DNA of 64,000 nt from a virus. Its lineage: Duplodnaviria; Heunggongvirae; Uroviricota; Caudoviricetes. Positions 2 through 17,043 of the stretch are shown here, piece after piece (position 1 is the first letter of the stretch; the number at the start of each line of letters is the position of its first letter). The position numbers were made by a program, and so were the translations under genes. Location of the stretch: IMG/VR virus record IMGVR_UViG_3300024269_000002; one strand, written 5' to 3'. The notes beneath the pieces are model-generated. The model was not told the origin of the DNA, ran no database searches, and worked only from the letters and a program-made list of their open reading frames with translations.

Positions 2-1489
2 GAGAGTAACATTGACTGTGACAAGGGCACAGTAGTTTACCTTGCAAGTACTGATGCAGGATTGAGATACAAACTTCTAGCAAGAGTCGTTCCGGAAGAT
101 AGTTCTCTAGCGGATTCAATCTTGCATGTTTCAGATTCTGTTGATAAGTTACGCAAGCGAGTTGAATTGCTAGAAATGGAGCAATCAAACTTCACTACTC
201 AGTTATCAGAACTTGTTGATCAAGTTGAAGATCATGAGACTGAATCTAAATATCAGTTTGAAGCTGTAACGACTGCCATTCAAGCAACAGTAAAGGATCT
301 TGAGGAAGTTAATGAAGATATTGCAGATGTTAGAGATGATATCAAACATCTCTCTGACGATTTTCAAACAGTTAATCACGATATCCACGATATCCTGCAC
401 AGTCACGAAACAAGATTAAATAGTTTTGAAAATTCTTTTGCTACAAAAGAATCGGTTGAGGATCTTGAAAAGAAAATTGACTCAATTCCTCAAGTTAGTC
501 TCGATGGTTATGCAACTGAACAGTATGTTAAGGATCAGATTGCCGGAATACAAGCTCCCGATATGAGCGGATATGCTACTATTGCCGACATTGATGCAAA
601 AGTTGCTGCTCTTGTTGATGGTGCTCCTTCGGCACTCAACACATTAGCCGAACTTGCTGAGGCTCTGAATGATCAGAAAGATGTTCTTGATACATTTGCA
701 ACAAAATCTGATCTTGCTCCTGTAGCTACATCGGGTAGTTACAAAGATCTAGTTGATACTCCTGAAATTCCATCAGTTGAGGGTCTTGCTTCAGAAATAT
801 ATGTGCAAGAAGCAATCAAAGCTATCCCTTCTGTTGACTTGACTGGTTATGCAAAAGCAGAGGATATTCCCGATGTTAGCAAGTTTGTTACTGCTGAGGA
901 TCTTCCTGCAGTTCCAACAAAGGTTAGCGAGCTAGAAAATGACTCAGGTTACTTAACGGAACATCAAAGTTTGGATGGATTAGCTACTGAAGAATTTGTA
1001 CAACAGCAAATTGATGCTATTCCTGATGTTGATCTAAGTAACTATGCAAAGAAGAGCGATCTTCCTGACACAAGTAAATTCTTAACTGAAGTTCCTCAGG
1101 AGTATATAACAGAGAGTGAGCTTGATGCAAAGGGTTATTTAACAGAGCATCAAAGTTTAGAAGGCTTAGCAACAGAAGAGTTCGTTCGTCAACAGATTGA
1201 TGCGATTCCTGAAGTAGACACAAGTGAATTAGCATCAAAAGCTGACCTTGAGCTTAAAGCGGATAAAACTTATGTTGATCAACAGTTAGATAATGTAACT
1301 GTTGACTTAACAGGTTATGCGACTGAGGATTTTGTTAGAACTGAGATTGCTAATGCTCAGCTCGGTGATGATGGTGAAACAATCATTGATTTATCATACC
1401 TTGCAACAAAAACCGATCTTTCAAATGAAGTTGCAACATTGAACAGACGCATTGACGAATTAAAAGTTATTCAGTATGGAACATTCTAA
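2..1489 (+). CDS. Tail fibre-like repeat protein, 5'-truncated by the window edge
   Basis: The frame is open from base 2 (ESNIDCDKG...), so the TTG at 62 is not the true start. Coiled-coil N-part, AALVDGAPSALNTLAELAEAL fibre motif, repeated GYATExYV / DLSNYAKK / GYLTEHQSL units (two GYLTEHQSLxGLATEEFVxQQIDAIPxVD copies 62 aa apart). Confidence 0.7.
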   Translation, partial: ESNIDCDKGTVVYLASTDAGLRYKLLARVVPEDSSLADSILHVSDSVDKLRKRVELLEMEQSNFTTQLSELVDQVEDHETESKYQFEAVTTAIQATVKDLEEVNEDIADVRDDIKHLSDDFQTVNHDIHDILHSHETRLNSFENSFATKESVEDLEKKIDSIPQVSLDGYATEQYVKDQIAGIQAPDMSGYATIADIDAKVAALVDGAPSALNTLAELAEALNDQKDVLDTFATKSDLAPVATSGSYKDLVDTPEIPSVEGLASEIYVQEAIKAIPSVDLTGYAKAEDIPDVSKFVTAEDLPAVPTKVSELENDSGYLTEHQSLDGLATEEFVQQQIDAIPDVDLSNYAKKSDLPDTSKFLTEVPQEYITESELDAKGYLTEHQSLEGLATEEFVRQQIDAIPEVDTSELASKADLELKADKTYVDQQLDNVTVDLTGYATEDFVRTEIANAQLGDDGETIIDLSYLATKTDLSNEVATLNRRIDELKVIQYGTF

Positions 1490-1506: not shown

Positions 1507-1905
1507 GTGCAATTTCAGATTAAGTATGGATTAAGAAGAAACATTGACAAGATTGCTGATGCAAACAAGATTGAAGGTTGTTGGTATATTTGTACTGATA
1601 CATTTGAAGTCTTTGTGTGCTTGAATGGTAATCTTGAGCCAATCAAAGCTGCCTCCTCTTTTGACGATGATATTGTCGACCTGAAAGCTCGTGTTCAAGC
1701 GTTGGAAGATGCTTCTGAGTCTGAGGTCAAAATAAATACAATCTTTGATCTTCCTGAACAAGGTCTTAGTAACATTGTATATATTGTTGTTAAGGATAAT
1801 GCTGCATACAGATGGAATGAAGACACAGGCAACTATGTATGCATCGGTAGAGACTGGATGGAAATCAATCGTATCAACGGTGGAGATGCAGCCTCTGTAT
1901 TCTGA
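1507..1905 (+). CDS. Small fibre-associated/adaptor protein
   Basis: GTG start 8 nt after AGGAGG (1493-1498). Contains YRWN...YVCIG and ends RINGGDAASVF. Confidence 0.6.
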   Translation: MQFQIKYGLRRNIDKIADANKIEGCWYICTDTFEVFVCLNGNLEPIKAASSFDDDIVDLKARVQALEDASESEVKINTIFDLPEQGLSNIVYIVVKDNAAYRWNEDTGNYVCIGRDWMEINRINGGDAASVF

Positions 1906-1986
1906 TAACAACACATAGATAATCAAGTATTTACTTGCTGTGGATATTAGTTTGTAATTATAATTATGAAAGGTACATAATCAGTT

Positions 1987-3123
1987 ATGGCAGAATTAAA
2001 AACTCAAATTCTAATCCGTAATGATTCCGCAGAAAACTGGACTACAAAGAATCCTGTTCTCGGTGTTGGTGAGTTTGGTGTCGAAGTTGGTGCTAATGAT
2101 AACAAGCTGAAGATTGGTGATGGCCAAACAGCTTGGAACGCACTTCCTTATACCTACAACTTAACTGAACTTCAAAGAATTGCATTGTTTGAGAATGACT
2201 TAACAATGACTATGCAGTTCGGTAAGTACACTCCTGATGCTAGCGGATCCGTTGTTGTTCCTGCAGCAGGCATGACTGCTGAGCAAGTTTTGCTCGGAGC
2301 ATTTGCGGAAGCAAAAGATCCTACAGTTAATGATCCTACTCTGAGTTTAACAACTAGCGGTAATCAGTCAGGTGAGGTTGGTACAGCTTATGCTTTGCCA
2401 CACGCTACAGCTTCTGTTACTACAGGTTCTTATGAATATGGTTCAAAAGATGCTTCTGATGTTAAGTACAGTGACACTGGCACAGGCATCACATTCACAT
2501 CAATCAAAGTGTCTTGCGAGGATCCGGCTAAGGAAACTTCAAGCTCTAACTCCAATGCTAATCTGCAATTGAAGTTGACAACAACTGAACTTCCTGACGC
2601 TAACAGAAAGTTTGAAACTACAGCAAAGACTATCAAGTTCAGTGCTGAGGCAACTCATCCTGCGTCTGCTCGCACACCTGTTAATAACTTGGGAACAAAG
2701 GTTGATGATCTCGCAATTGATGGTGAAACATTAACCGCAACTGCTTCTTTAACTATTACAGGCTATCGTTGCTGGTTTACTTATGTTGGAGCTGACTGCA
2801 CATCAACAGTTGACTCTGCATTCATCCGTAATAACGCAACTAATAAGGGCAATCATGTAAATGCAGGAAATGTTACTTTAACAGTTAGAGACGGTAATCT
2901 TGACAAGCGTGTGCTGATTGCAATTCCTGCAACAGGTAAGAACTTGACTAAGGTAATTGACGTTAAGGGTATGGGTCTTGACATCTTTGCTGGTGGTAAG
3001 TTTACTCACAAGGTTGTTTCTGTTGAAGGTGCTAATGGTTATAGTGCTATCAACTATGACGTTTGGGTGTACGAGAATGCAAATGGTTTTGCAGGAACTA
3101 CACTTAACTGCACAATCGGTTAA
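1987..3123 (+). CDS. Tail fibre/collar protein with Mtd_N/hyaluronidase-N-like N-terminal domain
   Basis: N-terminus QILIRNDSAENWTTKNPVLGVGEFGVE...KIGDGQTAWNALPY matches the phage fibre N-terminal motif; the rest is a Thr-rich beta-type body. Confidence 0.65.
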   Translation: MAELKTQILIRNDSAENWTTKNPVLGVGEFGVEVGANDNKLKIGDGQTAWNALPYTYNLTELQRIALFENDLTMTMQFGKYTPDASGSVVVPAAGMTAEQVLLGAFAEAKDPTVNDPTLSLTTSGNQSGEVGTAYALPHATASVTTGSYEYGSKDASDVKYSDTGTGITFTSIKVSCEDPAKETSSSNSNANLQLKLTTTELPDANRKFETTAKTIKFSAEATHPASARTPVNNLGTKVDDLAIDGETLTATASLTITGYRCWFTYVGADCTSTVDSAFIRNNATNKGNHVNAGNVTLTVRDGNLDKRVLIAIPATGKNLTKVIDVKGMGLDIFAGGKFTHKVVSVEGANGYSAINYDVWVYENANGFAGTTLNCTIG

Positions 3124-3146
3124 TCAAGTGAGAGGAGAATAACATA

Positions 3147-5039
3147 ATGGCATACGAATATCAAGGTTTTGCCACACTTGGCGTTAACCTGAATCGTCAG
3201 AACTACGGTGCACTTGATATTTCTCAGGTGTTTACAAGCCTGAACGATTTGAAGTACTATGTAAGTAAGGGCGCATATACAACAGACGTATCTACTTACT
3301 GGTACGAATCTGAAGATAAGAAAGTTGTTCCTTATCCTTATGCTGGTCAATATTTGGCCCTTGTCGATAATGACACTCGTAAGGTAACAGCTTATATTCT
3401 GGAAGAGAAAGCAGACGGCACATTTGACTACAAGGAAGTTGGCATCACTCCTATCGGTGATGATAAGACTGTTGATGTTGATGCAGCTGGTAAGATCACT
3501 CTTCATGGAATTGATGGACTTGACACTTCTAAAGTCTTTGTTCCTAAGCTAGTTGACGGTGAGCTTGTGTGGGCTGAGCCTTCTGCAGTTACTGTTGAGG
3601 GTCTGGATCAGAGACTCGGTGAAGCTGAAAAAGATATCGGTGCATTAGAAGCAAAAGATACAGAGCTTGCAGGAGAGATCGAAGCAGTTGAGAAAACTGT
3701 TGGTGAGCATACAACTGCTATCGGTGAGTTAGAGGCAGCTGATACAGCCCTCGGTGGCCGTATCGATGGTCACGACACTCGTCTTGCCAATCTTGAAGCC
3801 ACTGTTAATGGCAAGGACGCTGTTGGTACTGAGGGAGAGGATGGCTATCAGCCCGCAGTAACTGGTCTAACCGATAAGGTTGCAGATCATGAAACTCGTA
3901 TCGGAGCTGTTGAAGGAGCCGTTGCTAACGTCTATACAAAGTCTCAGACTGACGAAAAGATTGCTTCTGAAATTGGTAAGCAAGCTCACTTCAGTGCAAA
4001 AGTTGTAACTAGTACAACTGAGATGACCGATGCTACCACTCTGTATCTCATGAAGACTGCTGAAACAGGTGAAGATCTTTATGAAGAGTGGATTCTGATT
4101 GGTGGCGTTGCTACAAAGATCGGCACAACTGCAACCGATTTAACTGATTATGCAACTACTGAGGAAGTAGAATCACTTATCAGTGGTGCAAAGACAGAGA
4201 TTGAAGCAGCTTATGGTGCAGCTGACCAAGCCCTTGGCGAGCGTATCGATGGCGTTCAGCAGACAATCAATGGCTTAGGTAGTACTTATGCAACCATCGA
4301 GGAGATGAATAAGAAAGCTGCTCAAGCTGATCTTAATACAACTAACGATAATCTCGGTAAGTTAACAGAGAGAGTCGGATCTCTTGAAGCAACTGATCAC
4401 ACTCATACCAACAAGGGCGTTCTTGATGGTATTACTGAAGCAAAAGTTGCAGAGTGGGACAAGGCTGAAGAAAACCTTGTTAAGTCTGTTAAGGAAGGTG
4501 AACTGGCTGTTTCTGAAGCTGGTGAACTGTCCGTCGTCACAATTCCTCAAAGTAAGGTAACTGGTCTTACTGACAAGATTGCTGGTATTGAGGGTGATAT
4601 TGCAGGTAAGGTTGACGCTAAATCTGGCTATGGCTTGATCAGCGATGAAAATCTTGCTAAGCTAACTAAGCTGAGTTCTGATGGCACACTTGCTGCAGAA
4701 AATGTTACAGGTCTCGACACTTGGGTAAACAACAATCGTGAAACAGTCGGCGGACTGCTAAGTGCTGCAGATGAGGCAAAGCTCGATGGAATTTCTGCTG
4801 GCGCTCAAGTCAACGTTATTGAGGGTGTTTCTGTTGCTGGCGGTCAGCTGACTCCTGATAACAAGATTGTTGACATTCCTTTTGCAACTAATGCTGTTTA
4901 CGGTGTTGTCAAGGGAGCTGAAGCGGTTAACGCAGTTATGATCAATACATCCAATCAGATGGAAGTTCATAGCTTGAATGTTAACAAGCTTGTTCAAGAT
5001 GAGAATACTGTTCTTATTCTGAACGGTGGAAATGCTTAA
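3147..5039 (+). CDS. Tail fibre-like coiled-coil protein
   Basis: Heptad-like stretches, DHTHTNKGVLDGIT motif, AQVNVIEGV motif, C-terminal LILNGGNA. RBS GAGGAG upstream. Confidence 0.6.
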   Translation: MAYEYQGFATLGVNLNRQNYGALDISQVFTSLNDLKYYVSKGAYTTDVSTYWYESEDKKVVPYPYAGQYLALVDNDTRKVTAYILEEKADGTFDYKEVGITPIGDDKTVDVDAAGKITLHGIDGLDTSKVFVPKLVDGELVWAEPSAVTVEGLDQRLGEAEKDIGALEAKDTELAGEIEAVEKTVGEHTTAIGELEAADTALGGRIDGHDTRLANLEATVNGKDAVGTEGEDGYQPAVTGLTDKVADHETRIGAVEGAVANVYTKSQTDEKIASEIGKQAHFSAKVVTSTTEMTDATTLYLMKTAETGEDLYEEWILIGGVATKIGTTATDLTDYATTEEVESLISGAKTEIEAAYGAADQALGERIDGVQQTINGLGSTYATIEEMNKKAAQADLNTTNDNLGKLTERVGSLEATDHTHTNKGVLDGITEAKVAEWDKAEENLVKSVKEGELAVSEAGELSVVTIPQSKVTGLTDKIAGIEGDIAGKVDAKSGYGLISDENLAKLTKLSSDGTLAAENVTGLDTWVNNNRETVGGLLSAADEAKLDGISAGAQVNVIEGVSVAGGQLTPDNKIVDIPFATNAVYGVVKGAEAVNAVMINTSNQMEVHSLNVNKLVQDENTVLILNGGNA

Positions 5040-5060
5040 TCAACATTGAAATAACTTAAC

Positions 5061-5101
5061 ATTGTCCCTCTATAATGTATATCAATTTATAGAGGGACAA
5101 T
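5061..5101 (+). terminator. Hairpin/terminator after 3147-5039
   Basis: ATTGTCCCTCTATAA / TTATAGAGGGACAAT 15-bp stem, 11-nt loop, followed by TTATTTTG. Confidence 0.7.
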
Positions 5102-5131
5102 TTATTTTGTAGAAGTTGAGGTATTCGGTAT

Positions 5132-6244
5132 ATGGCAGATATTATTGAAAAAACACTGCAAACAAGAATTATAAACAAGCACGCTGCTTACTCAGACTGG
5201 GCAGCAAGTGACCTTGTTCTGCTTGATGGTGAAATTGCGCTTGCTAAGTTTACTGTCGCACAAGAAGCAACTGATGCTAATGGGAATGTGACTGTTCAGT
5301 ATGTTCCTACATACTTAATGAAGATTGGTGATGGAACAAACAAGTTCTCAGCACTGAGCTGGCTATCCGCTCCTGCATCCGATGTTTATGCTTGGGCAAA
5401 GAGCAAGTCTATCAATGATGTGGATCTGAGTTCACACACAGCAATCACAGGATTACAAGCTGCGATTGATGCTCTTGATTATTCTGATACAACTGCAGGA
5501 TTTGTAACAGCTGTTACTCAGACGAACGGTAAGATTTCAGTTTCAAAGAAAGCGTTAACACTTTCTGACATCACTGATTTTGAAGCAGATGCATTTGCCT
5601 CCGCAAGTGCCTTGGAAGCATTAGAGAAGCGAGTTACAGCTCTTGAATCTCGTATGACAGATCTTGACAACGTCATGAAGTCCGTTACAGGAGCTATGCA
5701 CTTTGTTGGTATTACAACAACTAATCCTGCAACAACAGGAGCAACTGTTCAGATTCCAAAAGCTGAGGGAGAAGGAACAGAAGTTAAGTCCTCTTACTTG
5801 ATTGGTGATGTTGTAATCTACAAAGTTGCAGAGACAACTGTGGATGGTGCAAAAATCCCTGCTCATGATATTGAATTTGTTAATATTGATGGTAACAACA
5901 CGGCTGCATCTTGGGTGGAGCTAGGTGATGTTACTGATGAGCAGAGAAGACTTTCAGATCTCGAAACAGATGTTGCTGAGATCTTGGCAAAGGTTCCTAA
6001 CATTCATACTCATGCAAACAAGGAACTTCTTGATTCCATCACGGAAGATAATGTTCATACTCATGAGAACAAAGAAGTAATTGATGGAATTACCGCACAA
6101 GATGTTATAAACTGGAATGCCATCTTTGCACGAGATCAAGATATTACGAATAATGATGCAAGAATTGTTGCTCTGTATCAGAAATTTGGTGATGGCACAA
6201 ATCTTGCAGACACATTCATTCTTGATTGCGGTGGTGTATCCTGA
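5132..6244 (+). CDS. Tail fibre-like protein (KIGDG N-domain, HTHxNK repeats)
   Basis: N-terminal ...DGEIALAK...MKIGDGTNKFSALSW; GFVTAVTQTNGKISV fibre motif; two HTHxNKExxDxIT repeats; ends FILDCGGVS. Confidence 0.65.
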   Translation: MADIIEKTLQTRIINKHAAYSDWAASDLVLLDGEIALAKFTVAQEATDANGNVTVQYVPTYLMKIGDGTNKFSALSWLSAPASDVYAWAKSKSINDVDLSSHTAITGLQAAIDALDYSDTTAGFVTAVTQTNGKISVSKKALTLSDITDFEADAFASASALEALEKRVTALESRMTDLDNVMKSVTGAMHFVGITTTNPATTGATVQIPKAEGEGTEVKSSYLIGDVVIYKVAETTVDGAKIPAHDIEFVNIDGNNTAASWVELGDVTDEQRRLSDLETDVAEILAKVPNIHTHANKELLDSITEDNVHTHENKEVIDGITAQDVINWNAIFARDQDITNNDARIVALYQKFGDGTNLADTFILDCGGVS

Positions 6245-6258
6245 TTCAGTTAAACTAC

Positions 6259-6294
6259 AAAATAGAGTCGTGTTTTTACACGACTCTATTTTTA
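6259..6294 (+). terminator. Intrinsic terminator
   Basis: AAAATAGAGTCGTGT-TTTT-ACACGACTCTATTTT followed by a T run. Confidence 0.8.
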
Positions 6295-6364
6295 TAACTG
6301 TTACACTCATCACAATTGTATATAACTGTATAAGAAGTTTATTCTAATAAGGAGTGTAAGACAC

Positions 6365-9300
6365 GTGGCAAAATTCATTACACAATTGAGACACGGAACT
6401 ACATCTGATTGGCAGAAGTCTTCAGTCATTCCTGCAAAGAATGAGTTAGTTGTTGAATATAGAGAAGACGGATCCCGTAGATTCAAACTGGGTGATGGCT
6501 CTTCTAGCTTCATCAATCTCGACTACATTGACGGTGATATTGAGCGCGCAGTTGATGTGATCAACGCAAGAGTTTCAAATTTGATTGTTCCTCCCTCTGG
6601 AGCAATTTCTTGTGATGACGAGGTTGAGGATATTCGTGTAGGCTATGATGGAACTACATTCGATAAAGCAGGTGATGCTGTTCGTGCTGTAGGAGATGAT
6701 GTTCATAATCTCAGAAAGAGCTTACAGCAGTTTATCAATGGTGATGCCGTTGATGGATTACTGTATGAAGATAATCTTCTATACTTGACAGCTGATGGTG
6801 TGATTGTCTCTGATCCTGTTGAAATCAAAGGTGGCTCTGGCGGCGGTGGCGGAACAAGCGATTCAAGTGTTAAAGTTAGAATCAAGAATGATACTGGAGT
6901 CTCTGCAATTTCTGCTGCAACTGGTTCTCCTGTTATTCTGAAATTTACATATATATCTCTTGAGGATGAAGTTCCTACAGGAGATTATACTTGCTCAATT
7001 TCTGTTAACGGTAAAGTTGTTAGAACTACAACTCTATCTCAAACGGCTCAGACTATTGATGTTGCTGAATATCTAGATGCTGGCACGAATAATGTTCGTG
7101 TCACTTGTACAGATATTTACGGCAATGCAAGAAGCTTAGCATATACTTGTACTGTTATTGATTTGAGTCTTGTTTCTTCTTTCAACTCAAGCATTCCATT
7201 CGATAGTGATATTACTTTCAAGTATATCCCTAGGGGTGATATTGAGAAAGTTGTTTACTTCTTCATTGATGGAAAAGAAATTGCTCATCAAACAATTACT
7301 TCTTCAGGAAGACAAACAACTCAGATTATTCCTCTGCAGTCACATGGATCTCACAAGCTTGAGGTTTATGCAACAGCTGTTCTGAATGATCAAACAATCA
7401 AGAGTAACACACTTGTTTATGATGTTATGTGTATTGGAGCTGGAAGAGATGAGCCACTCATTGCTTCCGCATATACTGTAACAGAAACAAAACAAGGAAA
7501 CATTCTTTCAATTCCATATGTTGTATATGACCCTTTGAAAACTGAGGCCGAAATTGAACTTATCATTACTCAGATTGTAAACGGTGTTGAGACTCACTAT
7601 GACACAACACCATTGACTGTTGATAGAACTCAACATTACTGGAATGTTAGAAAATATCCTACAGGAACAGTTAAGTTTACAATTGCGTATTCTACTGAGA
7701 AATATCCCGACACTAAAGTTTCACACATTGTTCTTGTTGAGGCATCTGACTTGAGTGTTGAGCCTATTACTGATAGTTTGGCTCTACATTTGTCCGCAGT
7801 TGGTAGATCAAATGACGAAAAGAATCCTGCTGTTTGGACCTACGGAGATGTTACAACTACATTCCGAGATTTTAACTGGGAAACTAACGGATGGGTTGAG
7901 GATGAGGAGAAAGATACTTGTCTGAGACTTAACGGTGACGCAAGAATTGAAATTGGTTACAAATTGTTTGGTCGTGACTTCCGTGAAATGGGTAAAACCA
8001 TTGAGCTAGAATTTGCTATCAGAGATGTTAATGATCGTGACGCTATTGTTATTGATTGTACTGATGGTGATGTTAGCTTACAGGTTACCGCAGATACAGC
8101 TACACTTTCAGGCTCAGGTGCAAAAGTTAACTGTACTTACCGTGAAAATGAAAGAGTAAGAGTTGGCTTTACTGTTGGTATCGGAACTAATGGTACCAGA
8201 TTTGTGTCTACTTACATTGATGGAATCTTATCAAATATCACTCAGTATCCAACAACAGGCAACTTTGAGCAAAAGACAAAAAGAAACATTTCAATCGGTT
8301 CTGGTTTGTGCGGAATCGACTTGTATACAATTCGTGTTTACGATAATGAACTTGCTCCTAATGAGATGGTTCAAAACTATATCGCAGACGCAACTATTCC
8401 TAGTGTGAAGCAAGAACTCTTTGAGGACAATGATATCTATGATAGCAACGGAAAAGTTAGCTATGAAAAGATCAAATCAAAGATTCCTGTAGTAACATTT
8501 GTTGGTGCAATGCCTACTTACAAGGGTGACAAGAAAAAGAATTCTGTAAGAATGATTTTCGAGCATCCGGAACATCCTGAACTCAACTTTAATGAAATAT
8601 TGAAAGAAATCGATGTTCAGGGTACATCTTCTCAGTTCTATGTTCGCAAGAACTGGAAGACAAAACATAATGATTATCATCAGCACATGTTGGATGAAGT
8701 TCCTGCAAAAGTATTCTGTATGAAGGTTGACTATGCAGAGGCAACCGGTACACACAACACTCAAGTCGCAAACTTTGCAGAAACTCTGTACACTGAGAAG
8801 ATTCCTCCACAGACTGAGGATCCTCGTGTTAGAACAACAATTGCTGGTTTCCCGTGTGTAATCTTTGAAAAAGAAACTGACGATTCCACTCCAGTATTCT
8901 CTTCAAAAGCAAACTTCAACTTTGATAAAGGTGCAGAGAATGCTTTCGGATTTACAGATAAATACGACACAGAATGCTGGGAATTCTGCAACAATACATC
9001 AAATTCTTGTAACTTCCTCGGAGAAATTCCCGCGGACTGGCGAGCTGACTTTGAGCCTCGTTACTGTGGATTAAAAACAACAGTTACAAAAGACGATGGT
9101 GAAGAAGAAACAGTTGGTGTATGGGACAGAATTGAAGAATTGAGAGAAAAAGAAGAAGCATTAAGTGCTGAAGGTCAGACTCTAAGTGAACTTGAACAAG
9201 AAGAGCTTGCAGAGCTTCATGCAACTGCAATTGCTAGATTCAAGGTAATGCACGATTGGGTTCGGAGTACCGCAACGGTTTATCCTACAGGAGATGGCGC

Positions 9301-12300
9301 TGTTGCTGATATTGACTTCAGTAATCCTGCAGATCTTCCTGCTCCTGTGATGTATAAGGGTGTTTCTTATACACAAGATACAAAAGAATATCGTCTTGCA
9401 AAGTTTGAAGCGGAGTTTGAGAACTACTTCAACATGCACTACTCCTTGGTGTACTATGTGTTTACATTCTTCGCATTGATGGTTGACCAGAGAGCAAAGA
9501 ATATGTTCTTGACTTACTGGAATGGTAAGTGGTATCCTTACTTGTACGATAATGATACATCATTCGGAATTAACAACGAAGGCGCAAGAGTATTTGATTA
9601 CTACCATGAGGATACTGACACGCTTGGAACTTCAAATGTTTACAACGGTCAGAACAGCACACTGTGGGTAAACTTTAGACAGTGTTTCCCGCAAAAGATT
9701 CGTTCAATGTATTCCACCCTTCGTAGTGACAAGAAGATTACTTACGACATCTTGGTTGACAAGTTTATTACAAATGGTTCAGAACAGTGGAGTGCGTCTC
9801 TTTACAATGAGGATGCTGAGTTCAAATACATCACAATGGCTCGTCCAGAGCTTGTTGGTGAAGAGAATGTGGACACTGCAAACTTGTATCAAGTAAAAGG
9901 TTCCGCCGAACATCATTTTAAGTACTTTGTTGAGAATAGACTTATGTACTGTGATAGCAAGTGGAATTGTGGTGATTATCCTTCCGACTATGCTTTCTTG
10001 CGTATCTATACGCCACAGTTAACAGGTGGTAACACACCGATACAGAAAAATGGTACATGGTGGATTGAGGATACTGACACAGGTATTGAAATTACAACAG
10101 ACTCCGAAGGAGCTGTTATCGCGCCAATCGTCGGTGATAACGGTAACTGGTACATCAACAATACTGACACAGGAATTCTTGCAACAGGTAATGCCCTTGT
10201 TGTTCCTGCAGATCCAAGAATTACAGTAACTCCGTTCTCTAACATGTACGCAGGTGTCAAATACAAAGCAAACGGAATCTTCCAGAGTAAGCGTCTCGGT
10301 GCTGGAGAGTCTTGGAAGTTTGCTCCTCCTGGATATGATACTGGAAACAGAGAAATCTTCAACGATACAGAAACAGGTATCTACGGTGCAAGTGAGTTGT
10401 CATCTCTGGGTGACTTGTCTGGATTGTACTGTGGTGTTATCAATGTGTCTGCATGTAAGAAGTTAACTGATCTAATTATCGGAAATCGTACTCCGGGATA
10501 TGCTAATGACAACTTCCGCGAGTTAAGTATTGGTAGTAACAAACTGTTAACCATACTGGATGTTACCAACTGTACAGGACTCGGACTTGATCACGGTAAC
10601 GGTACTCCTCAGGAAACATTGTCCGTTAAGAACTGTCCGAATATTGAAGAGGTTTGGGCTCATGGTACACATATCAAGACAATCGAACTTCCTGAATCTG
10701 GTTACTTGAGAGTACTTCATGCTCCTGAAACACTCACATCTCTTACTATTAAGAATCAGTTGTATCTCGAACTGGAAACAGAAGAGAATGCAGCTAAAGA
10801 AGTATACGGTTTGAATATTCCTGACTGGAAAAACATCAAACAGTTGTACATTGATAACTGTCCGAAACTGGACACAGTCGCTATCCTGAATGAATGTAAG
10901 GATGACAATGGTAACTGGACTGTTGAGCGTATCAGATTGACGAATGTTCACTGGGACCTTGACGACATTACATTCCTACAGTCACTATATAGTGTAGCCG
11001 GTCGTGACCAGAATGAAATGAACACAGAGCATGCTTACTTGATTGGTACTTGCCACATCAAGAAGCTGACTGGTGCTGAGATGGCTGAAATCAATGCTGC
11101 ATATCCTTATCTGGATATTACATTTGATGAATTAAACGCAGAACTAACATTCAAAGATCTCCAAGGTAACACAATTGACTTCGGTGAAAGCTTTGCTAAC
11201 CCTCAGAAGATCAAAGCTGTTAATAACATTGGCGGAACCTGCGAGTGTCCTATAACTTCCGGATACTATGATATTCCTGTTCGTGCTGAGGATGCTCAGT
11301 ATACTTATGAATGGGGTGGATGGTCAAGATTCCTCGATGAAGAACCTGAAGCAGATGCTCTGACAAACATTCGTGGAGATAGAACAGTTTATATAGCATT
11401 CAAAAAGACTGTTAAGAAGTATCCGATTGATTTCTACAATGATGATATGTTCTTAGTAACTGTCACAACTCCGTATGGATCCACAGCTGTTTATCCTTAT
11501 GGTGAACCTCAAAAGCTCGGAACTGATAACCCCGATCTTTATGAATTCCGTGGCTGGGCTCCTTCTCCTGTGGAGATAACAGGCCCTATGAAAGTTTATG
11601 CTCAGTTCCAAGTTGATGATGACACTTGGCATGTGCTAGGTCTAAACGATATCAAGTATTCACTTGATTCCTCAAAAATGACAATGGCTATTACAAGCTA
11701 CGATGCTGTTGAGCCAGTTGTTCAAGTTCCTGCAACATTCGGTGCATCCGGTTCGACTTATACGGTAACATCAATTGATGGATTTAATACAAAGCCTGTT
11801 GAGTTGATTGATCTTCCAGATACATTAACTGAATTTGGTGAATATGCATTCAAGGATTGTACTTCGCTATCAAATGTGGAGGTTCCGGTGAATGTGTCCA
11901 AGATAGGTAATGGAGCATTTGCTAACTGTACAAATCTTGATTTGGTCCAGTATGATGCAACAAATGCAAGCGTTGTTTGTACAAATGTTACTCAAGGACC
12001 ATTCAACGGTTGTGTATCCGATAAGGGATTCATTGCAACTATCGGTAAGAATGTTCTTACTATTCCTGACTCGTTGTTCGCTCAAGGCGCGTTCAAAGAA
12101 AATACATTGACAAACGTTACATTTGAGTCTGGTAGCTCTTGTACTACAATCGGTAGTTATTCTTTCAGCCGTGTGTCTCTTGAAGATCTTCATCTTCCTT
12201 CAAGTGTTAGAACAATTGAGAATCATGCGTTCTTGGAGAACAACTACATTACAAGTTTAGAACTACCTGAGGGTGTTCAAACACTTGGAGATAGTTCCTT

Positions 12301-12994
12301 CTCTGGATGGAAGAAGCTACAAACTGTTACATTGCCAAGTACAATAACATCAATTGGAACAGGTGTGTTCAGTGATTGTCCAAAACTAGAACAGATATCA
12401 ATTGCTTCTGGCAACAAGGTTTACAAAGTTGTTGATAACTGTTTGATTGATATCTCAAGAAACTTGCTTGTGCAAGGTTGCATGAACAGTGTTATCCCTT
12501 CAAGTGTCATTGCACTTCAAGCAAATGCATTCCAAGGATGCTCACAGCTTGCTAGTGTAACAATCCCTTCCGGAGTAAGTTTAATTCCTGCTTATGCATT
12601 CGATGATTGTACTAATCTGACAAGTGTAGTTATTCCTTCAACTGTTACAGACATTGAAATGCTTGCGTTCTACAACTGCGGTAAGTTACAGATTGAGCTT
12701 CCAGACTCAGTGGAGTATATCCGAAGTCACGCATTTGCCTACAATATTGCTCTTGAGAGGGTTTCCTTACCAAAGAATCTTAAGATTCTTGCAGAGCGTG
12801 TCTTCAGATACTGTAAAGCACTTCACACTGTGACATTTAGAGGAACTCCTTCTCAGATTGATGCTCTTGCACTTGCAGATTGTACCGCATTAACTACAAT
12901 CAATGTTCCGTGGTCACAAACAGATGCAATCAATGCAAACGCACCTTGGGGAGCTACTGGTGCAACAATTAACTACAACTACACAGGAGAATGA
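6365..12994 (+). CDS. Giant multidomain fibre/receptor-binding protein (KxGDG N-domain, LamG-like, CotH-like, LRR, B-repeat-like, BspA-type LRR)
   Basis: 2209 aa, GTG start. N-terminal QLRHGTTSDW...FKLGDG; LamG-like GKTIELEF...IDLYTIRVYD; CotH-like QGTSS..RKNW and DQRAKNMF..W..YLYDNDTSFG; GW-containing B-repeat-like units; C-terminal IxLPxxLxxIGxxAFxxCxxL repeats. Confidence 0.7.
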   Translation: MAKFITQLRHGTTSDWQKSSVIPAKNELVVEYREDGSRRFKLGDGSSSFINLDYIDGDIERAVDVINARVSNLIVPPSGAISCDDEVEDIRVGYDGTTFDKAGDAVRAVGDDVHNLRKSLQQFINGDAVDGLLYEDNLLYLTADGVIVSDPVEIKGGSGGGGGTSDSSVKVRIKNDTGVSAISAATGSPVILKFTYISLEDEVPTGDYTCSISVNGKVVRTTTLSQTAQTIDVAEYLDAGTNNVRVTCTDIYGNARSLAYTCTVIDLSLVSSFNSSIPFDSDITFKYIPRGDIEKVVYFFIDGKEIAHQTITSSGRQTTQIIPLQSHGSHKLEVYATAVLNDQTIKSNTLVYDVMCIGAGRDEPLIASAYTVTETKQGNILSIPYVVYDPLKTEAEIELIITQIVNGVETHYDTTPLTVDRTQHYWNVRKYPTGTVKFTIAYSTEKYPDTKVSHIVLVEASDLSVEPITDSLALHLSAVGRSNDEKNPAVWTYGDVTTTFRDFNWETNGWVEDEEKDTCLRLNGDARIEIGYKLFGRDFREMGKTIELEFAIRDVNDRDAIVIDCTDGDVSLQVTADTATLSGSGAKVNCTYRENERVRVGFTVGIGTNGTRFVSTYIDGILSNITQYPTTGNFEQKTKRNISIGSGLCGIDLYTIRVYDNELAPNEMVQNYIADATIPSVKQELFEDNDIYDSNGKVSYEKIKSKIPVVTFVGAMPTYKGDKKKNSVRMIFEHPEHPELNFNEILKEIDVQGTSSQFYVRKNWKTKHNDYHQHMLDEVPAKVFCMKVDYAEATGTHNTQVANFAETLYTEKIPPQTEDPRVRTTIAGFPCVIFEKETDDSTPVFSSKANFNFDKGAENAFGFTDKYDTECWEFCNNTSNSCNFLGEIPADWRADFEPRYCGLKTTVTKDDGEEETVGVWDRIEELREKEEALSAEGQTLSELEQEELAELHATAIARFKVMHDWVRSTATVYPTGDGAVADIDFSNPADLPAPVMYKGVSYTQDTKEYRLAKFEAEFENYFNMHYSLVYYVFTFFALMVDQRAKNMFLTYWNGKWYPYLYDNDTSFGINNEGARVFDYYHEDTDTLGTSNVYNGQNSTLWVNFRQCFPQKIRSMYSTLRSDKKITYDILVDKFITNGSEQWSASLYNEDAEFKYITMARPELVGEENVDTANLYQVKGSAEHHFKYFVENRLMYCDSKWNCGDYPSDYAFLRIYTPQLTGGNTPIQKNGTWWIEDTDTGIEITTDSEGAVIAPIVGDNGNWYINNTDTGILATGNALVVPADPRITVTPFSNMYAGVKYKANGIFQSKRLGAGESWKFAPPGYDTGNREIFNDTETGIYGASELSSLGDLSGLYCGVINVSACKKLTDLIIGNRTPGYANDNFRELSIGSNKLLTILDVTNCTGLGLDHGNGTPQETLSVKNCPNIEEVWAHGTHIKTIELPESGYLRVLHAPETLTSLTIKNQLYLELETEENAAKEVYGLNIPDWKNIKQLYIDNCPKLDTVAILNECKDDNGNWTVERIRLTNVHWDLDDITFLQSLYSVAGRDQNEMNTEHAYLIGTCHIKKLTGAEMAEINAAYPYLDITFDELNAELTFKDLQGNTIDFGESFANPQKIKAVNNIGGTCECPITSGYYDIPVRAEDAQYTYEWGGWSRFLDEEPEADALTNIRGDRTVYIAFKKTVKKYPIDFYNDDMFLVTVTTPYGSTAVYPYGEPQKLGTDNPDLYEFRGWAPSPVEITGPMKVYAQFQVDDDTWHVLGLNDIKYSLDSSKMTMAITSYDAVEPVVQVPATFGASGSTYTVTSIDGFNTKPVELIDLPDTLTEFGEYAFKDCTSLSNVEVPVNVSKIGNGAFANCTNLDLVQYDATNASVVCTNVTQGPFNGCVSDKGFIATIGKNVLTIPDSLFAQGAFKENTLTNVTFESGSSCTTIGSYSFSRVSLEDLHLPSSVRTIENHAFLENNYITSLELPEGVQTLGDSSFSGWKKLQTVTLPSTITSIGTGVFSDCPKLEQISIASGNKVYKVVDNCLIDISRNLLVQGCMNSVIPSSVIALQANAFQGCSQLASVTIPSGVSLIPAYAFDDCTNLTSVVIPSTVTDIEMLAFYNCGKLQIELPDSVEYIRSHAFAYNIALERVSLPKNLKILAERVFRYCKALHTVTFRGTPSQIDALALADCTALTTINVPWSQTDAINANAPWGATGATINYNYTGE

Positions 12995-13698
12995 TCATGT
13001 ATAAACTTATCACAAGAGATGTTGTTGTAGATGTTTTAGAAACTGTTAAATATGTGAGATGGCTCAAGAAGTCAAAACGATTTGTTCTAACTGACAGAAC
13101 AAGTGCTCATGGTGTTTACGGTTCCGACAATAAAACTGTTTATGTTCTTGAGGGCAGTAACTGCCCTCAAGTTCTTCCTAATACTGTTGTTAAACTGATT
13201 CAGATTACAGAATCTGAATTCACTCGTCTGAAGTCTTTACTACATGGTAAAGTAACTGTTGATGCTGATATTGTTTTGTTGAATAAAACGAAAGATGAAA
13301 AGCTTCAAGAGTTATCTAAGAAATGTAAAGCTGCAATCGAGGCGGGTGTTAGTGTCATGTTCTCTGACAACAAGTCTCATGAATTCCGATTAACAGTTGA
13401 GGATCAGTTAAATCTATGGTCGATTGAAAAGGAAATTCAAGCTGGCAGCTTAGCTGTACTTTATCATGAAACCGGAAAAGCCTGTAAGATGTACCGAGCT
13501 AGTGATATCATTAAATTGATTCAAGCTGCCGATTTACATAAAAAGCATCATACAACATACTATAACATCCTCAAACATTGTATAAACAATATGTACAGTA
13601 AAGAGGAAGTTGATCGTGTTTACTACGGTATTCCTTTGGAGGATCTTCCGATGTCGGATGATGTACAATATCTTGTAAAGGAGCAACACATTGTCTGA
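12991..13698 (+). CDS. Tail fibre assembly chaperone-like protein (DUF4376-like)
   Basis: ATGA overlap with the giant fibre. C-half LSKKCKAAIEAGV...FRLTVEDQLNL...YH..G..C..Y...HHTTYYN resembles phage DUF4376-type proteins that follow fibres. Confidence 0.55.
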   Translation: MIMYKLITRDVVVDVLETVKYVRWLKKSKRFVLTDRTSAHGVYGSDNKTVYVLEGSNCPQVLPNTVVKLIQITESEFTRLKSLLHGKVTVDADIVLLNKTKDEKLQELSKKCKAAIEAGVSVMFSDNKSHEFRLTVEDQLNLWSIEKEIQAGSLAVLYHETGKACKMYRASDIIKLIQAADLHKKHHTTYYNILKHCINNMYSKEEVDRVYYGIPLEDLPMSDDVQYLVKEQHIV

Positions 13699-13957
13699 TA
13701 AAACACTACATGCTCGAATTATCAATATACATGATGTCGAGTACAACTGGAATCAAGCAAAAGACTTTGTTCCTAAAGCGGGGGAGATTGTTGTTTATGA
13801 TGTTGATCAGGGGCACACTTATCCACGATTCAAGATGGGCGACGGAAAGACATCTGTTGTTGATCTTCCATTTACATTAGATGCTACAATTAGTGATTTC
13901 TTCGGAGGAGCGTCCGGAGTAATCTACCTCAATGGTGGCAACATCAATGACTACTGA
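13691..13957 (+). CDS. Minimal fibre adaptor (KxGDG domain plus C-terminal LNGG)
   Basis: 88 aa, TTG start overlapping the upstream gene. FVPKAGEIVVYD...RFKMGDGKTSVVDLPF, ending IYLNGGNINDY. Confidence 0.6.
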   Translation: MSDKTLHARIINIHDVEYNWNQAKDFVPKAGEIVVYDVDQGHTYPRFKMGDGKTSVVDLPFTLDATISDFFGGASGVIYLNGGNINDY

Positions 13958-13967
13958 GAGGTAGAAC

Positions 13968-14492
13968 ATGTTAGAAAAAGTTATTGTATCTAGAGTAAAA
14001 CAAAAAATGGCCACTCTAGCTGAGTGGCAAGCAGTGTGGCAAACGTTCGTTCCACTTCGTGGTGAACAGTGTGTTATCATCATTCCTGCAAATTCTACGG
14101 AAGGTGAAGCTCTTGGATTTACAAGGTCTGAGGATATTCGTCATGTTTCAAAAACAGGTGATGGTACATCATTCATTGGAGACTTACCTTGGGATGCAGA
14201 TAGCTCAAATGTTTCTCAAGCTCTAGCTTCAAATGAGCAAGAAATCAATAGAGTATCTGCTCTTGTTGGTGAGGAAACAGTTGCTACACAGATTACAAAA
14301 GCTTTCAGTGAAAAGTTCTTCATTGGTACTACAGCTGAGTACAAAACAGCTTATGATGCAGGATTGATTACTGATGGTATGGTTGTTTTCTTAACAGATG
14401 ATGATGGAATGATTAACAGTGGCGAAATGGATAGTAGTTCAACATCAGCTGTTCTTGGCTTGGCTGTGCTAGGTCAAATGGTTCTAGGTTAA
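13968..14492 (+). CDS. Fibre adaptor-like protein
   Basis: GAGAGG RBS. FVPLRGE...SKTGDGTSFIGDLPW N-domain; C-terminal SAVLGLAVLGQMVLG. Confidence 0.55.
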   Translation: MLEKVIVSRVKQKMATLAEWQAVWQTFVPLRGEQCVIIIPANSTEGEALGFTRSEDIRHVSKTGDGTSFIGDLPWDADSSNVSQALASNEQEINRVSALVGEETVATQITKAFSEKFFIGTTAEYKTAYDAGLITDGMVVFLTDDDGMINSGEMDSSSTSAVLGLAVLGQMVLG

Positions 14493-17007: not shown

Positions 17008-17043
17008 AGTGCTACTAAGCTAACATGTTAGCTTAGTAGCACT
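17008..17043. repeat. 36-nt perfect palindrome (probable terminator)
   Basis: AGTGCTACTAAGCTAACATGTTAGCTTAGTAGCACT equals its own reverse complement; followed by TATTTTAT. Confidence 0.85.

What the first reader, a model, noticed from the sequence alone, without database searches (positions are those of the whole stretch)
1507..14492. Apparent plug-and-socket code chaining fibre subunits in gene order
Seen: five genes begin with the same K-x-GDG domain (1987 KIGDG, 5132 KIGDG, 6365 KLGDG, 13691 KMGDG, 13968 KTGDG). Four genes end in a hydrophobic-[ND]-x(0,1)-GG peptide (1507 INGG, 3147 LNGG, 5132 LDCGG, 13691 LNGG). In all four cases the GG-ending gene is immediately followed by a KxGDG-starting gene. 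Established: the KxGDG domain resembles the Mtd_N/hyaluronidase N-terminal fibre domain. Inference: the C-terminal GG peptide docks into the next subunit's N-domain, giving an extensible, branched fibre chain whose order is written in the genome.
Basis: partly seen in the sequence, partly recalled or inferred. Interest (0 to 1): 0.78.

Follow-up and report, generated by a model that had tools for sequence, protein, structure and literature searches.

The report
Peptide-and-cap joints linking phage fibre proteins
In this jumbo phage, as in many other phages, a short Asp/Asn-Gly-Gly peptide ending one tail-fibre protein is followed by a gene that starts with a conserved K-x-GDG cap, so the two probably form a joint that clips separate fibre proteins end to end; binding itself is still untested.

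Summary
In this 204-kb phage genome only five window genes (plus one small orphan ORF outside the window) start with the Mtd_N/HylP-type K-x-GDG head. Only four genes end in the h-[ND]-x-GG tail, and each of those four is followed directly by a head gene.

The block alone is weak evidence (permutation p = 0.043). The rule is general, though:
- Sampled by head only, 36% of upstream genes carry the tail, against 2.3% of background ORFs (p = 2e-28).
- Sampled by tail only, 65% of carriers are followed by a head.
- Inside single proteins, 40% of internal heads are preceded by the tail, against 2.8% of control windows.
- One body and distal domain occurs joined directly, joined through tail plus head, or split at the tail|head boundary.
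- BPP-1 Bbp9→Mtd, the S. pyogenes prophage gene before HylP, and Arthrobacter Persistence gp30→gp31 all follow the rule.

A Shine-Dalgarno artefact was excluded. Direct docking remains inferred: two single-chain AlphaFold models gave no confident contact and no solved structure shows the joint. Branching and a pair-specific "code" are unsupported. I found no published description, but this scan has already noted the same joint on other DNA.

The parts
2..1489 (+). 3' part of a 570-aa coiled-coil fibre protein that starts 223 nt before the window. It has neither a K-x-GDG head nor a GG tail.
   Evidence: ORF list, translations, PHROG tail-fibre hits.
1507..1905 (+). 132-aa tail carrier and first link of chain A. 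The tail INRINGGDAASVF lies at 1864-1902.
   Evidence: The tail profile scores it at E 1e-4. Its C-terminal domain is homologous to the 104-aa gene upstream of a head gene in L042.
1987..3123 (+). 378-aa terminal fibre of chain A. The head lies at 1987-2160 (KIGDG) and there is no tail.
   Evidence: Pfam Mtd_N at E 2.4e-5, PHROG tail-fibre and hyaluronidase heads, head HMM at E 5e-24.
3147..5039 (+). 630-aa fibre shaft and first link of chain B. It has no K-x-GDG head. The tail VLILNGGNA lies at 5010-5036.
   Evidence: DUF7310 coiled coil; best tail-profile score in the genome, E 3e-7. Locus L093 has an analogous 626-aa protein ending ...LVIFGGNA that is followed by a head gene.
5062..5100 (+). 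Hairpin followed by a U-run between genes 3147 and 5132; it looks like an intrinsic terminator.
   Evidence: RNA fold of 5040-5131: -27.4 kcal/mol, z = -4.6.
5132..6244 (+). 370-aa middle link of chain B. The head lies at 5132-5380 (KIGDG) and a two-unit tail KFGDGTNLADTF-ILDCGGVS lies at 6182-6241.
   Evidence: Head HMM at E 2e-14, tail alignment A4, tail profile at E 2.5e-5.
6259..6292 (+). Hairpin followed by a U-run between genes 5132 and 6365; it looks like an intrinsic terminator.
   Evidence: RNA fold of 6245-6364: -35 kcal/mol, z = -6.3.
6365..12994 (+). 2209-aa terminal fibre of chain B. The head lies at 6365-6538 (KLGDG). The C-terminal region carries BspA-type leucine-rich repeats, so this is the probable adhesin. 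There is no tail.
   Evidence: Head HMM at E 9e-16; Pfam LRR_5 at E 3e-71 and a weak CotH match at E 0.003.
12991..13698 (+). 235-aa protein with neither head nor tail. It overlaps both neighbouring genes and its role is unknown (possibly a fibre accessory or assembly protein).
   Evidence: phrog_1348 'tail fiber protein' at E 3e-13; translation.
13691..13957 (+). 88-aa minimal adaptor that consists only of a head (13691-13888, KMGDG) and a two-unit tail FFGGASGVIY-LNGGNINDY (13898-13954). It is the first visible link of chain C, and no tail-bearing gene precedes it.
   Evidence: Similar 64-119-aa head-plus-tail proteins occur in L013, L027/L080, L054, L191, L201 and L213.
13968..14492 (+). 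174-aa terminal member of chain C. The head lies at 13968-14210 (KTGDG, with an insertion) and there is no tail.
   Evidence: Head HMM at E 3e-10; translation.

Best explanation
The region is the tail-fibre module of an uncultured ~204-kb phage. Its fibres are built from separate, presumably trimeric, proteins that are joined end to end by a two-part connector. One part is a short C-terminal peptide of one to four units of roughly h-[DN]-G-G-x-[AP]-x-[ST]-x-[YF], ending h-[DN]-(x)-G-G plus 1-8 residues. The other part is the ~55-residue Mtd_N/HylP-type N-terminal cap (W...GE...K-x-GDG...L-x-Y) of the next protein.

In the window this gives three linear chains:
- 1507 -> 1987
- 3147 -> 5132 -> 6365, where 6365 is a 2209-aa protein with BspA-type leucine-rich repeats and is the likely adhesin
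- (unknown anchor) -> 13691 -> 13968

Middle links carry both a head and a tail. Distal, receptor-binding members carry only a head.

What is shown: the motifs, their strict adjacency here, their strong two-way association in other viruses, and their occurrence as one contiguous module inside single proteins.

What is inferred: that tail and head touch each other, most likely as a composite trimeric beta-structure assembled from two proteins, and that this contact is what holds the fibre segments together.
For: 1. Head-only sampling of viral contigs (123 of 125 pattern hits are true N-terminal heads). The gene immediately upstream ends in the tail in 40 of 110 cases, against 24 of 1064 other ORFs in the same loci (OR 25, p 2e-28).
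2. Tail-only sampling. 52 of 80 ORFs ending IDGGTA are followed by a head.
3. It is not a ribosome-binding-site artefact. An embedded GGAGG before head genes is read as Gly-Gly in 23 of 24 cases, against 18 of 48 in other coupled gene pairs. 15 of 40 tails lie more than 25 nt from the next start codon. The window tails are 10-120 nt from the next gene.
4. Fusions. L062 (P0001) carries body, DGG unit, head and distal domain in one 302-aa ORF. Its head-plus-distal part is a separate gene preceded by a tail gene in L094 and L086. P0002-P0006 join the same body and distal domain directly, with neither tail nor head.
5. Among 1.84 billion representative proteins the head occurs in 39,554. Within the 150 best-scoring hits, 31 of 77 internal heads preceded by non-head sequence have the tail within 24 residues, against 17 of 598 control windows (OR 23, p 1e-20).
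6. Tail carriers are structurally diverse, which fits a portable docking tag. They include small 60-200-aa proteins, an FII-like head-tail attachment protein, collagen-like fibres, a tail endopeptidase and head-bearing fibres.
7. Studied phages obey the rule. BPP-1 fibre protein Bbp9 ends LADLGGIA and the next gene is mtd; Mtd sits at the ends of the tail fibres (PMC2408619). In S. pyogenes prophage Javan521 a 684-aa tail endopeptidase ends QIILDGGNQ and overlaps the start of HylP. Arthrobacter phage Persistence gp30 (71 aa) ends in a two-unit tail directly before the head of gp31.
8. In the window, terminal members lack tails, and gene 13691 is head plus tail only.
Against: - There is no direct evidence of contact. 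The AlphaFold2 monomer model of the natural fusion leaves the tail at pLDDT below 55. The read-through model of 1507C-1987N folds the head (pLDDT 89-96) but not the tail (below 50). Neither model can represent a trimer-trimer joint.
- No PDB chain carries the tail, and only isolated HylP enzymes carry the head.
- The pairing is not exclusive. 28 of 80 IDGGTA tails precede other genes, mostly three other recurrent N-terminal families. About half of the heads have other upstream partners, for example acidic-tailed coiled-coil proteins in T4-like cyanophages.
- Head 13691 has no tail-bearing gene in front of it.
- Within the window alone, the gene order is significant only at p = 0.043.
Confidence: 0.68

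Rival explanations
1. The tail is an intrinsic C-terminal cap or trimerisation/folding element of proximal fibre segments. The head is a generic N-terminal cap of distal segments. They co-occur only because proximal and distal fibre genes sit next to each other, and the real contact between the proteins is made by other surfaces.
For: Tails also precede three other N-terminal families. The single-chain models show no tail-head contact. Head units can stack directly on each other in tandem arrays without any DGG unit between them.
Against: The tail sits on unrelated carriers, including an FII-like neck protein, an endopeptidase, collagen-like fibres and 60-aa proteins, so it is not part of any one fold. 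In fused proteins it lies immediately before the head (6-15 residues) at the same ~40% frequency as in split genes. Proteins made only of head plus tail exist, such as 13691, L191 and L213.
Confidence: 0.17
2. The conserved tail and head sequences mark a recombination boundary that lets phages swap distal fibre cassettes. They have no role in holding the proteins together.
For: Fibre modules are notoriously mosaic. The same distal domain is found behind different bodies. The head is very widespread, with 39,554 representative proteins.
Against: Conservation is at the protein level across contigs with no DNA similarity: megablast of the window region finds nothing. The reading frame through an embedded GGAGG is fixed as Gly-Gly. 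Gaps between the tail gene and the head gene vary from -26 to +186 nt.
Confidence: 0.07
3. The joint is covalent: a spontaneous isopeptide bond forms between the Asp/Asn of the tail and the Lys of K-x-GDG, helped by the conserved Glu, in the manner of SpyTag/SpyCatcher.
For: All five window heads have the Lys and the Glu, and the tails have an invariant Asp or Asn after a hydrophobic strand.
Against: The Lys is Arg in the crystallised HylP proteins 2yvv and 2c3f (ARAGDG), and Arg in the orphan head of this genome (FRIGDG). It is absent in Mtd (VVHDG). So this cannot be the general mechanism.
Confidence: 0.03
4. The terminal Gly-Gly is only a by-product of the downstream gene's Shine-Dalgarno sequence (GGAGG) lying inside the upstream reading frame.
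For: 21 of 40 tail GG dipeptides are encoded as GGA-GGN, and 17 of 40 lie 5-20 nt before the head gene's start codon.
Against: The frame test gives 23 of 24 read as Gly-Gly, against 18 of 48 in controls. 15 of 40 tails lie further than 25 nt from the start, and 15 of 40 have second units 7-16 residues upstream. Tails occur inside fused proteins, where no start codon follows. The window tails are 10-120 nt from the next gene.
Confidence: 0.02

Closest known systems
Bordetella phage BPP-1: tail fibre Bbp9 and the receptor-binding protein Mtd (founder of Pfam PF18454 Mtd_N)
   Same: Mtd trimers sit at the distal ends of the tail fibres (PMC2408619). mtd directly follows bbp9, and Bbp9 ends LADLGGIA, which fits the tail pattern. 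The window heads belong to the same N-terminal domain family.
   Different: How Mtd is attached to the fibre has not been described in the papers I could read. The Mtd head is divergent (VVHDG, no Lys). BPP-1 has one joint, whereas this window has four joints in three chains.
Streptococcus pyogenes prophage hyaluronidase HylP (PDB 2c3f, 2dp5, 2yvv, 3eka, 6x3m)
   Same: The head profile matches the first ~55 residues of HylP at E 7e-14 to 6e-11. In prophage Javan521 the upstream tail endopeptidase ends QIILDGGNQ and overlaps the hylP start.
   Different: The crystal structures are of the isolated enzyme, so no partner peptide is present. HylP is a terminal enzyme, not a chain link.
Phage T4 long tail fibre gp34-gp35-gp36-gp37 (from my own knowledge; review PMC3004832)
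   Same: Separate proteins are joined end to end non-covalently, and the genes lie in the order of the proteins in the fibre.
   Different: There is no sequence relationship, and no shared recognisable tail/cap motif pair has been reported. The T4 joints include the monomeric gp35.
Anchor-and-branch receptor-binding protein systems (Klebsiella phages, G7C, CBA120; PMC6872550)
   Same: Conserved N-terminal anchor domains attach one receptor-binding protein to another or to an adaptor. The systems are modular and exchangeable.
   Different: Those systems use T4 gp10-like or T7 gp17-like anchor domains and give branched assemblies. Here the cap is Mtd_N-like, its partner is a terminal peptide, and the chains are linear.

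Membership tests
Mtd_N / HylP N-terminal domain (Pfam PF18454) | Match to the Pfam model above its gathering score | tested here: inconclusive
   Gene 1987 scores 24.6 bits (E 2.4e-5) against a cut-off of 26.3. The other four heads are not reported by Pfam.
Mtd_N / HylP N-terminal domain (Pfam PF18454) | Profile-level homology to proteins whose N-terminal domain structure is solved | tested here: met
   A profile of the 5 window heads plus 69 heads from other contigs hits HylP residues ~2-57 in 6x3m, 2dp5, 2yvv, 2c3f and 3eka at E 7e-14 to 6e-11. A profile of the window heads alone hits 6x3m at E 5e-4. Many database homologues carry a precomputed PF18454 annotation.
Mtd_N / HylP N-terminal domain (Pfam PF18454) | Position at the extreme N-terminus of a phage fibre or receptor-binding protein | tested here: met
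   All five heads start at residues 1-6 of their proteins. The genes lie in a tail-fibre module according to PHROGs.
Mtd_N / HylP N-terminal domain (Pfam PF18454) | Trimeric beta-prism fold | tested here: inconclusive
   The monomer AlphaFold2 model gives a confident beta/alpha unit for the 1987 head (pLDDT 89-96). Oligomeric state cannot be modelled with these tools, and I ran no fold search.
DGG-tail / Mtd_N-cap fibre joint (candidate connector; not found in the literature searched) | C-terminal h-[DN]-(x)-G-G within the last ~14 residues of the upstream protein | tested here: met
   Genes 1507, 3147, 5132 and 13691. 5132 and 13691 fit the two-unit consensus.
DGG-tail / Mtd_N-cap fibre joint (candidate connector; not found in the literature searched) | The next gene on the same strand begins with the head | tested here: met
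   4 of 4 in the window. In other contigs: 36% against 2.3% background, and 65% in the converse direction.
DGG-tail / Mtd_N-cap fibre joint (candidate connector; not found in the literature searched) | Physical binding of the tail to the head | not testable with these tools
   Only single-chain AlphaFold2 is available, and both attempts left the tail unstructured. No solved structure contains the joint.
T4-type long tail fibre (gp34-gp37) | Sequence homology to gp34, gp35, gp36 or gp37 | tested here: not met
   No such family appears among the Pfam or PHROG hits of the module. The resemblance is functional only.

The most novel reading that the evidence does not exclude
The DGG tail and the Mtd_N cap are the two halves of a very widespread connector that can be read from sequence. 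The head family alone has about 40,000 representative protein clusters, spanning phages of cyanobacteria, actinobacteria, firmicutes and proteobacteria. Within one virion, sequence variants of tail and cap would pair specifically, so that the composition and order of multi-protein fibres could be read from a genome and re-wired by swapping tails.
Probability: 0.3. Interest if true: 0.85.

Novelty: new variant of a known kind. Interest (0 to 1): 0.66.

Why it matters
Host range of tailed phages is set by fibres that are often built from several proteins, and for uncultured phages nobody can currently say which protein sits on which.

A recognisable tail/cap pair would allow three things:
- Annotators could order fibre proteins directly from sequence. 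Here that gives three chains, with the 2209-aa leucine-rich-repeat protein as one distal tip.
- It would explain the many tiny 'hypothetical' genes found in front of fibre genes: they would be adaptors or docking tags.
- It would give phage engineers a small portable tag for hanging new receptor-binding proteins on an existing virion.

It would also supply the missing attachment partner for two classic proteins, Mtd and HylP.

Tried and rejected
- **Close relatives.** Megablast of the region against 50,697 phage records found nothing. Close-relative loci of the 630-aa protein in viral contigs: none. tblastn with the 1987 head gave only 4 records. I therefore used degenerate DNA patterns instead.
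- **Tail as a degenerate second head.** MAFFT twice aligned NGG tails onto KIGDG. I rejected this for gene 5132, whose KFGDG...DCGG fits the two-unit tail consensus. A distant relationship between the tail unit and the head hairpin is not excluded.
- **Shine-Dalgarno artefact.** Tested and rejected.
- **Covalent isopeptide link.** Rejected as a general mechanism because the Lys is not conserved.
- **Translational coupling or co-translational assembly as the reason for adjacency.** This is unlikely in the window, because terminator-like hairpins separate 3147 | 5132 | 6365.
- **Structure.** AlphaFold2 of the natural fusion and of a read-through of 1507-1987 gave no confident tail-head contact. 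PDB searches with the head and tail profiles found no joint.
- **Literature.** Searches for Mtd_N, Bbp9, HylP anchors, 'DGG motif' and C-terminal motifs in branched fibres found no description of the pairing.
Full report
**What is in the window.** The window is G000:C1:51371-115370 of a single 204,199-base viral contig, 92% complete by CheckV. It has no close relative among deposited phages. All genes between 1 and 17 kb lie on the + strand, and their PHROG matches are tail-fibre families.

Five genes (1987, 5132, 6365, 13691, 13968) open with a domain of 55-80 residues that contains an invariant W, a GE pair and K-x-GDG (alignment A2). Four genes (1507, 3147, 5132, 13691) end in INGG+6, LNGG+2, LDCGG+2 and LNGG+5 residues. 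Each of these four is followed directly by a head gene.

Across ~280 ORFs of the genome, K.GDG occurs only in these five genes. A head HMM adds only a ~68-aa orphan ORF far outside the window. A tail profile ranks the same four genes on top and nothing else convincingly, though the four tails were part of that profile's training set. The head is the Mtd_N/HylP N-terminal domain. Pfam PF18454 hits gene 1987 just under threshold, and a 74-sequence head profile hits the crystallised HylP hyaluronidases at E 7e-14.

**Is it more than chance?** Inside the 8-gene block, a random gene order gives four tail-to-head adjacencies with p = 0.043, so the window alone is weak evidence. I therefore sampled other viruses in both directions.

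- *Sampling by head.* A degenerate DNA pattern for K-I-G-D-G-x-T-x-W, which says nothing about the upstream gene, retrieved 120 loci from IMG/VR. 123 of the 125 matches are true N-terminal heads. The gene immediately upstream ends in h-[ND]-x?-GG within its last 14 residues in 40 of 110 non-redundant cases. The figure for other ORFs in the same, mostly structural, loci is 24 of 1064 (odds ratio 25, Fisher p = 2e-28). Several of those 'background' tails are in fact also followed by heads, so the true rate is higher.
- *Sampling by tail.* A pattern for I-D-G-G-T-A-stop retrieved another 120 loci. Of 80 non-redundant ORFs of at least 50 aa that end this way, 52 (65%) are followed by a head.

**What the tail looks like.** Alignment of about 90 tails shows a unit of roughly h-D-G-G-x-[AP]-x-[ST]-x-[YF], repeated one to four times and ending in h-[DN]-(x)-G-G plus 1-8 residues. 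The tails of 13691 (FFGGASGVIY-LNGGNINDY) and 5132 (KFGDGTNLADTF-ILDCGGVS) fit the two-unit form. The 'second KFGDG' of 5132 is therefore part of the tail, not a second head. The D-C-G-G variant recurs elsewhere (L004, and many fused proteins).

**A confounder, tested.** Gly-Gly is encoded by GGN-GGN, which can contain the Shine-Dalgarno core GGAGG. Indeed 21 of 40 tail GG dipeptides are GGA-GGN, and 17 of 40 lie 5-20 nt before the head gene's start. If the dipeptide were only a by-product, the upstream frame through GGAGG should be random. It is read as Gly-Gly in 23 of 24 cases before head genes, against 18 of 48 in other coupled pairs of the same loci. In addition, 15 of 40 tails lie more than 25 nt from the next start, and 15 of 40 have a second unit 7-16 residues upstream. 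In the window the tails are 10-120 nt away from the next gene. The motif is therefore selected at the protein level, and compact genomes merely reuse it as a ribosome-binding site.

**Evidence that tail and head belong together physically.**

1. *Three architectures of one protein.* L062 (P0001, 302 aa, with its own ATG and SD) reads body, then ...SFDGGTADSPSP, then head, then distal domain. Its head-plus-distal part is a separate gene in L094 and L086, and in both it is preceded by a tail-bearing gene. P0002-P0006 join the same body and distal domain directly, with neither tail nor head. Tail plus head can thus replace a covalent link.
2. *Fused forms at large scale.* An exhaustive profile search finds the head in 39,554 representative proteins. 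Among the 150 best-scoring, 31 of 77 internal heads preceded by non-head sequence have the tail within 24 residues before the head, often the full two-unit form. Control windows give 17 of 598 (OR 23, p = 1e-20). The ~40% association is the same whether or not a gene boundary separates the two parts.
3. *Diverse carriers.* Tail carriers include 60-200-aa proteins, an FII-like head-tail attachment protein (PF05354), collagen-like fibres, a tail endopeptidase and head-bearing fibres. This is how a portable docking tag would behave.
4. *Chains and minimal adaptors.* Chains occur elsewhere too: L038 runs 170 aa -> 417 aa -> 300 aa, and L093 runs 154 -> 626 -> 168+ aa. Minimal proteins of 64-119 aa made only of head plus tail are common.
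5. *Studied phages.* BPP-1 Bbp9 ends LADLGGIA and is followed by mtd, and Mtd sits at the fibre ends (PMC2408619). In S. pyogenes prophage Javan521 the tail endopeptidase ends QIILDGGNQ and overlaps hylP. Arthrobacter phage Persistence gp30 (71 aa) ends in a two-unit tail directly before the head of gp31. S-CBS3 gp18 ends LILQAGGAES before the fibre gene gp19. The head is present in 604 deposited phage genomes, of cyanobacteria, actinobacteria, streptococci, Xanthomonas and others.

**Limits.** Contact between tail and head is inferred, not shown. AlphaFold2 is available only for single chains. The natural fusion gave a confident distal domain and a moderately confident head, but a tail at pLDDT below 55. 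A read-through of the in-frame pair 1507-1987, with paired rows from nine other in-frame pairs, folded the head (pLDDT 89-96) but not the tail. These results neither support nor refute a trimer-trimer joint. No PDB chain carries the tail, and only isolated HylP enzymes carry the head.

The partnership is also not exclusive. The 28 IDGGTA tails not followed by a head mostly precede three other recurrent N-terminal families. About half of head genes have other upstream neighbours, including small coiled-coil proteins with acidic tails in T4-like cyanophages and a 92-aa family. In some proteins head units abut each other in tandem arrays with no DGG unit between them. This shows that the head can also stack on itself.

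**Reading of the window.** There are three linear chains:
- Chain A: 1507 (tail) -> 1987 (head only).
- Chain B: 3147 (tail) -> 5132 (head and tail) -> 6365 (head only; 2209 aa with BspA-type LRR_5 at E 3e-71).
- Chain C: 13691 (head and tail, 88 aa) -> 13968 (head only). The upstream partner of 13691 is unknown, since 12991 has no tail.

Nothing indicates branching. Whether the four different tails select their own heads (a 'code') was not testable here. Terminator-like hairpins lie between 3147 | 5132 | 6365, so translational coupling cannot explain the adjacency in this phage.

**Novelty.** It is textbook knowledge that phage fibres attach through conserved N-terminal domains, and that gene order can mirror assembly order (T4 gp34-37; PMC12143355 and PMC3004832 for the general statements). 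I found no paper describing the C-terminal DGG peptide or its pairing with Mtd_N. I therefore class it as a new variant of a known kind.

This scan has already noted the same joint on other DNA, in giant viruses, T4-like phages and cyanophages. Those are unchecked AI notes. I read them after my own survey, and they agree with it but are not independent evidence.

Noticed in passing
window 5062-5100 and 6259-6292: Strong hairpins followed by U-runs sit in the 92-nt and 120-nt gaps between fibre genes 3147 | 5132 | 6365 (z = -4.6 and -6.3). They look like intrinsic terminators or attenuators and might grade expression along the fibre chain. The simple terminator scan missed them.
   Followed up: partly
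G000:C1 about 158730-158960 (outside the window): An orphan ORF of ~68 aa consists almost only of a head domain (…FRIGDG…; head HMM E 4e-14). It lies in a non-structural region and has no tail-bearing neighbour.
   Followed up: partly
G000:C1:144040-144426 (outside the window): A 128-aa ORF starts with a related 'KR...GE...YVGDG' type of fibre cap (head HMM E 2e-4). A similar cap heads P0077, which itself ends in a two-unit DGG tail.
   Followed up: no
G000:C1:49780-51132 (ends 238 nt before the window): A 450-aa protein ends ...FIDAGTAPI, a weak tail-like ending (tail profile E 0.3). It is followed by the 570-aa coiled-coil fibre protein that runs into the window, so this may be a further, divergent joint.
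   Followed up: no
proteins P0121, P0122, P0123, P0142, P0164 (metagenomic): These proteins are built from 2-8 head units in direct tandem (period ~48 aa) with no DGG unit between them. The Mtd_N-like unit can evidently serve as a shaft repeat as well as a cap.
   Followed up: partly
L243 (Prochlorococcus phage P-SSM4) and loci L003, L031, L037, L097, L106, L116: In T4-like cyanophages the giant head-bearing structural protein is preceded not by a DGG tail but by a ~75-aa coiled-coil protein ending ...LEYxNPP followed by an acidic tail. This is a second recurrent class of upstream partner.
   Followed up: no
loci L127, L133, L139, L142, L143, L153, L162, L182, L191, L195, L198, L201, L213, L218, L222, L239: Tails ending IDGGTA that are not followed by a K-x-GDG head mostly precede one of two recurrent N-terminal families: 'M-x-x-P-[ST]-N-[VIL]-x-YGTV-x-G-x-F-[IL]LA' or 'M-x-x-Y-x-x-F-x-Y...' with an FN3-like region. 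These may be alternative sockets.
   Followed up: no
window 6365-12994: Besides the BspA-type LRR_5 repeats (E 3e-71), the 2209-aa fibre protein has weak CotH (E 0.003) and CE2_N (E 0.005) matches. Another first-reader note (e1-5446740) flags the CotH-like segment.
   Followed up: no
window 15620-16933: A 437-aa protein carries a GDSL/SGNH esterase domain (Pfam E 2e-14) and matches phrog_5240 'tail fiber protein' at E 8e-49. It is probably a fibre-borne deacetylase/esterase. A 16-bp-stem terminator follows at 17008-17043.
   Followed up: no
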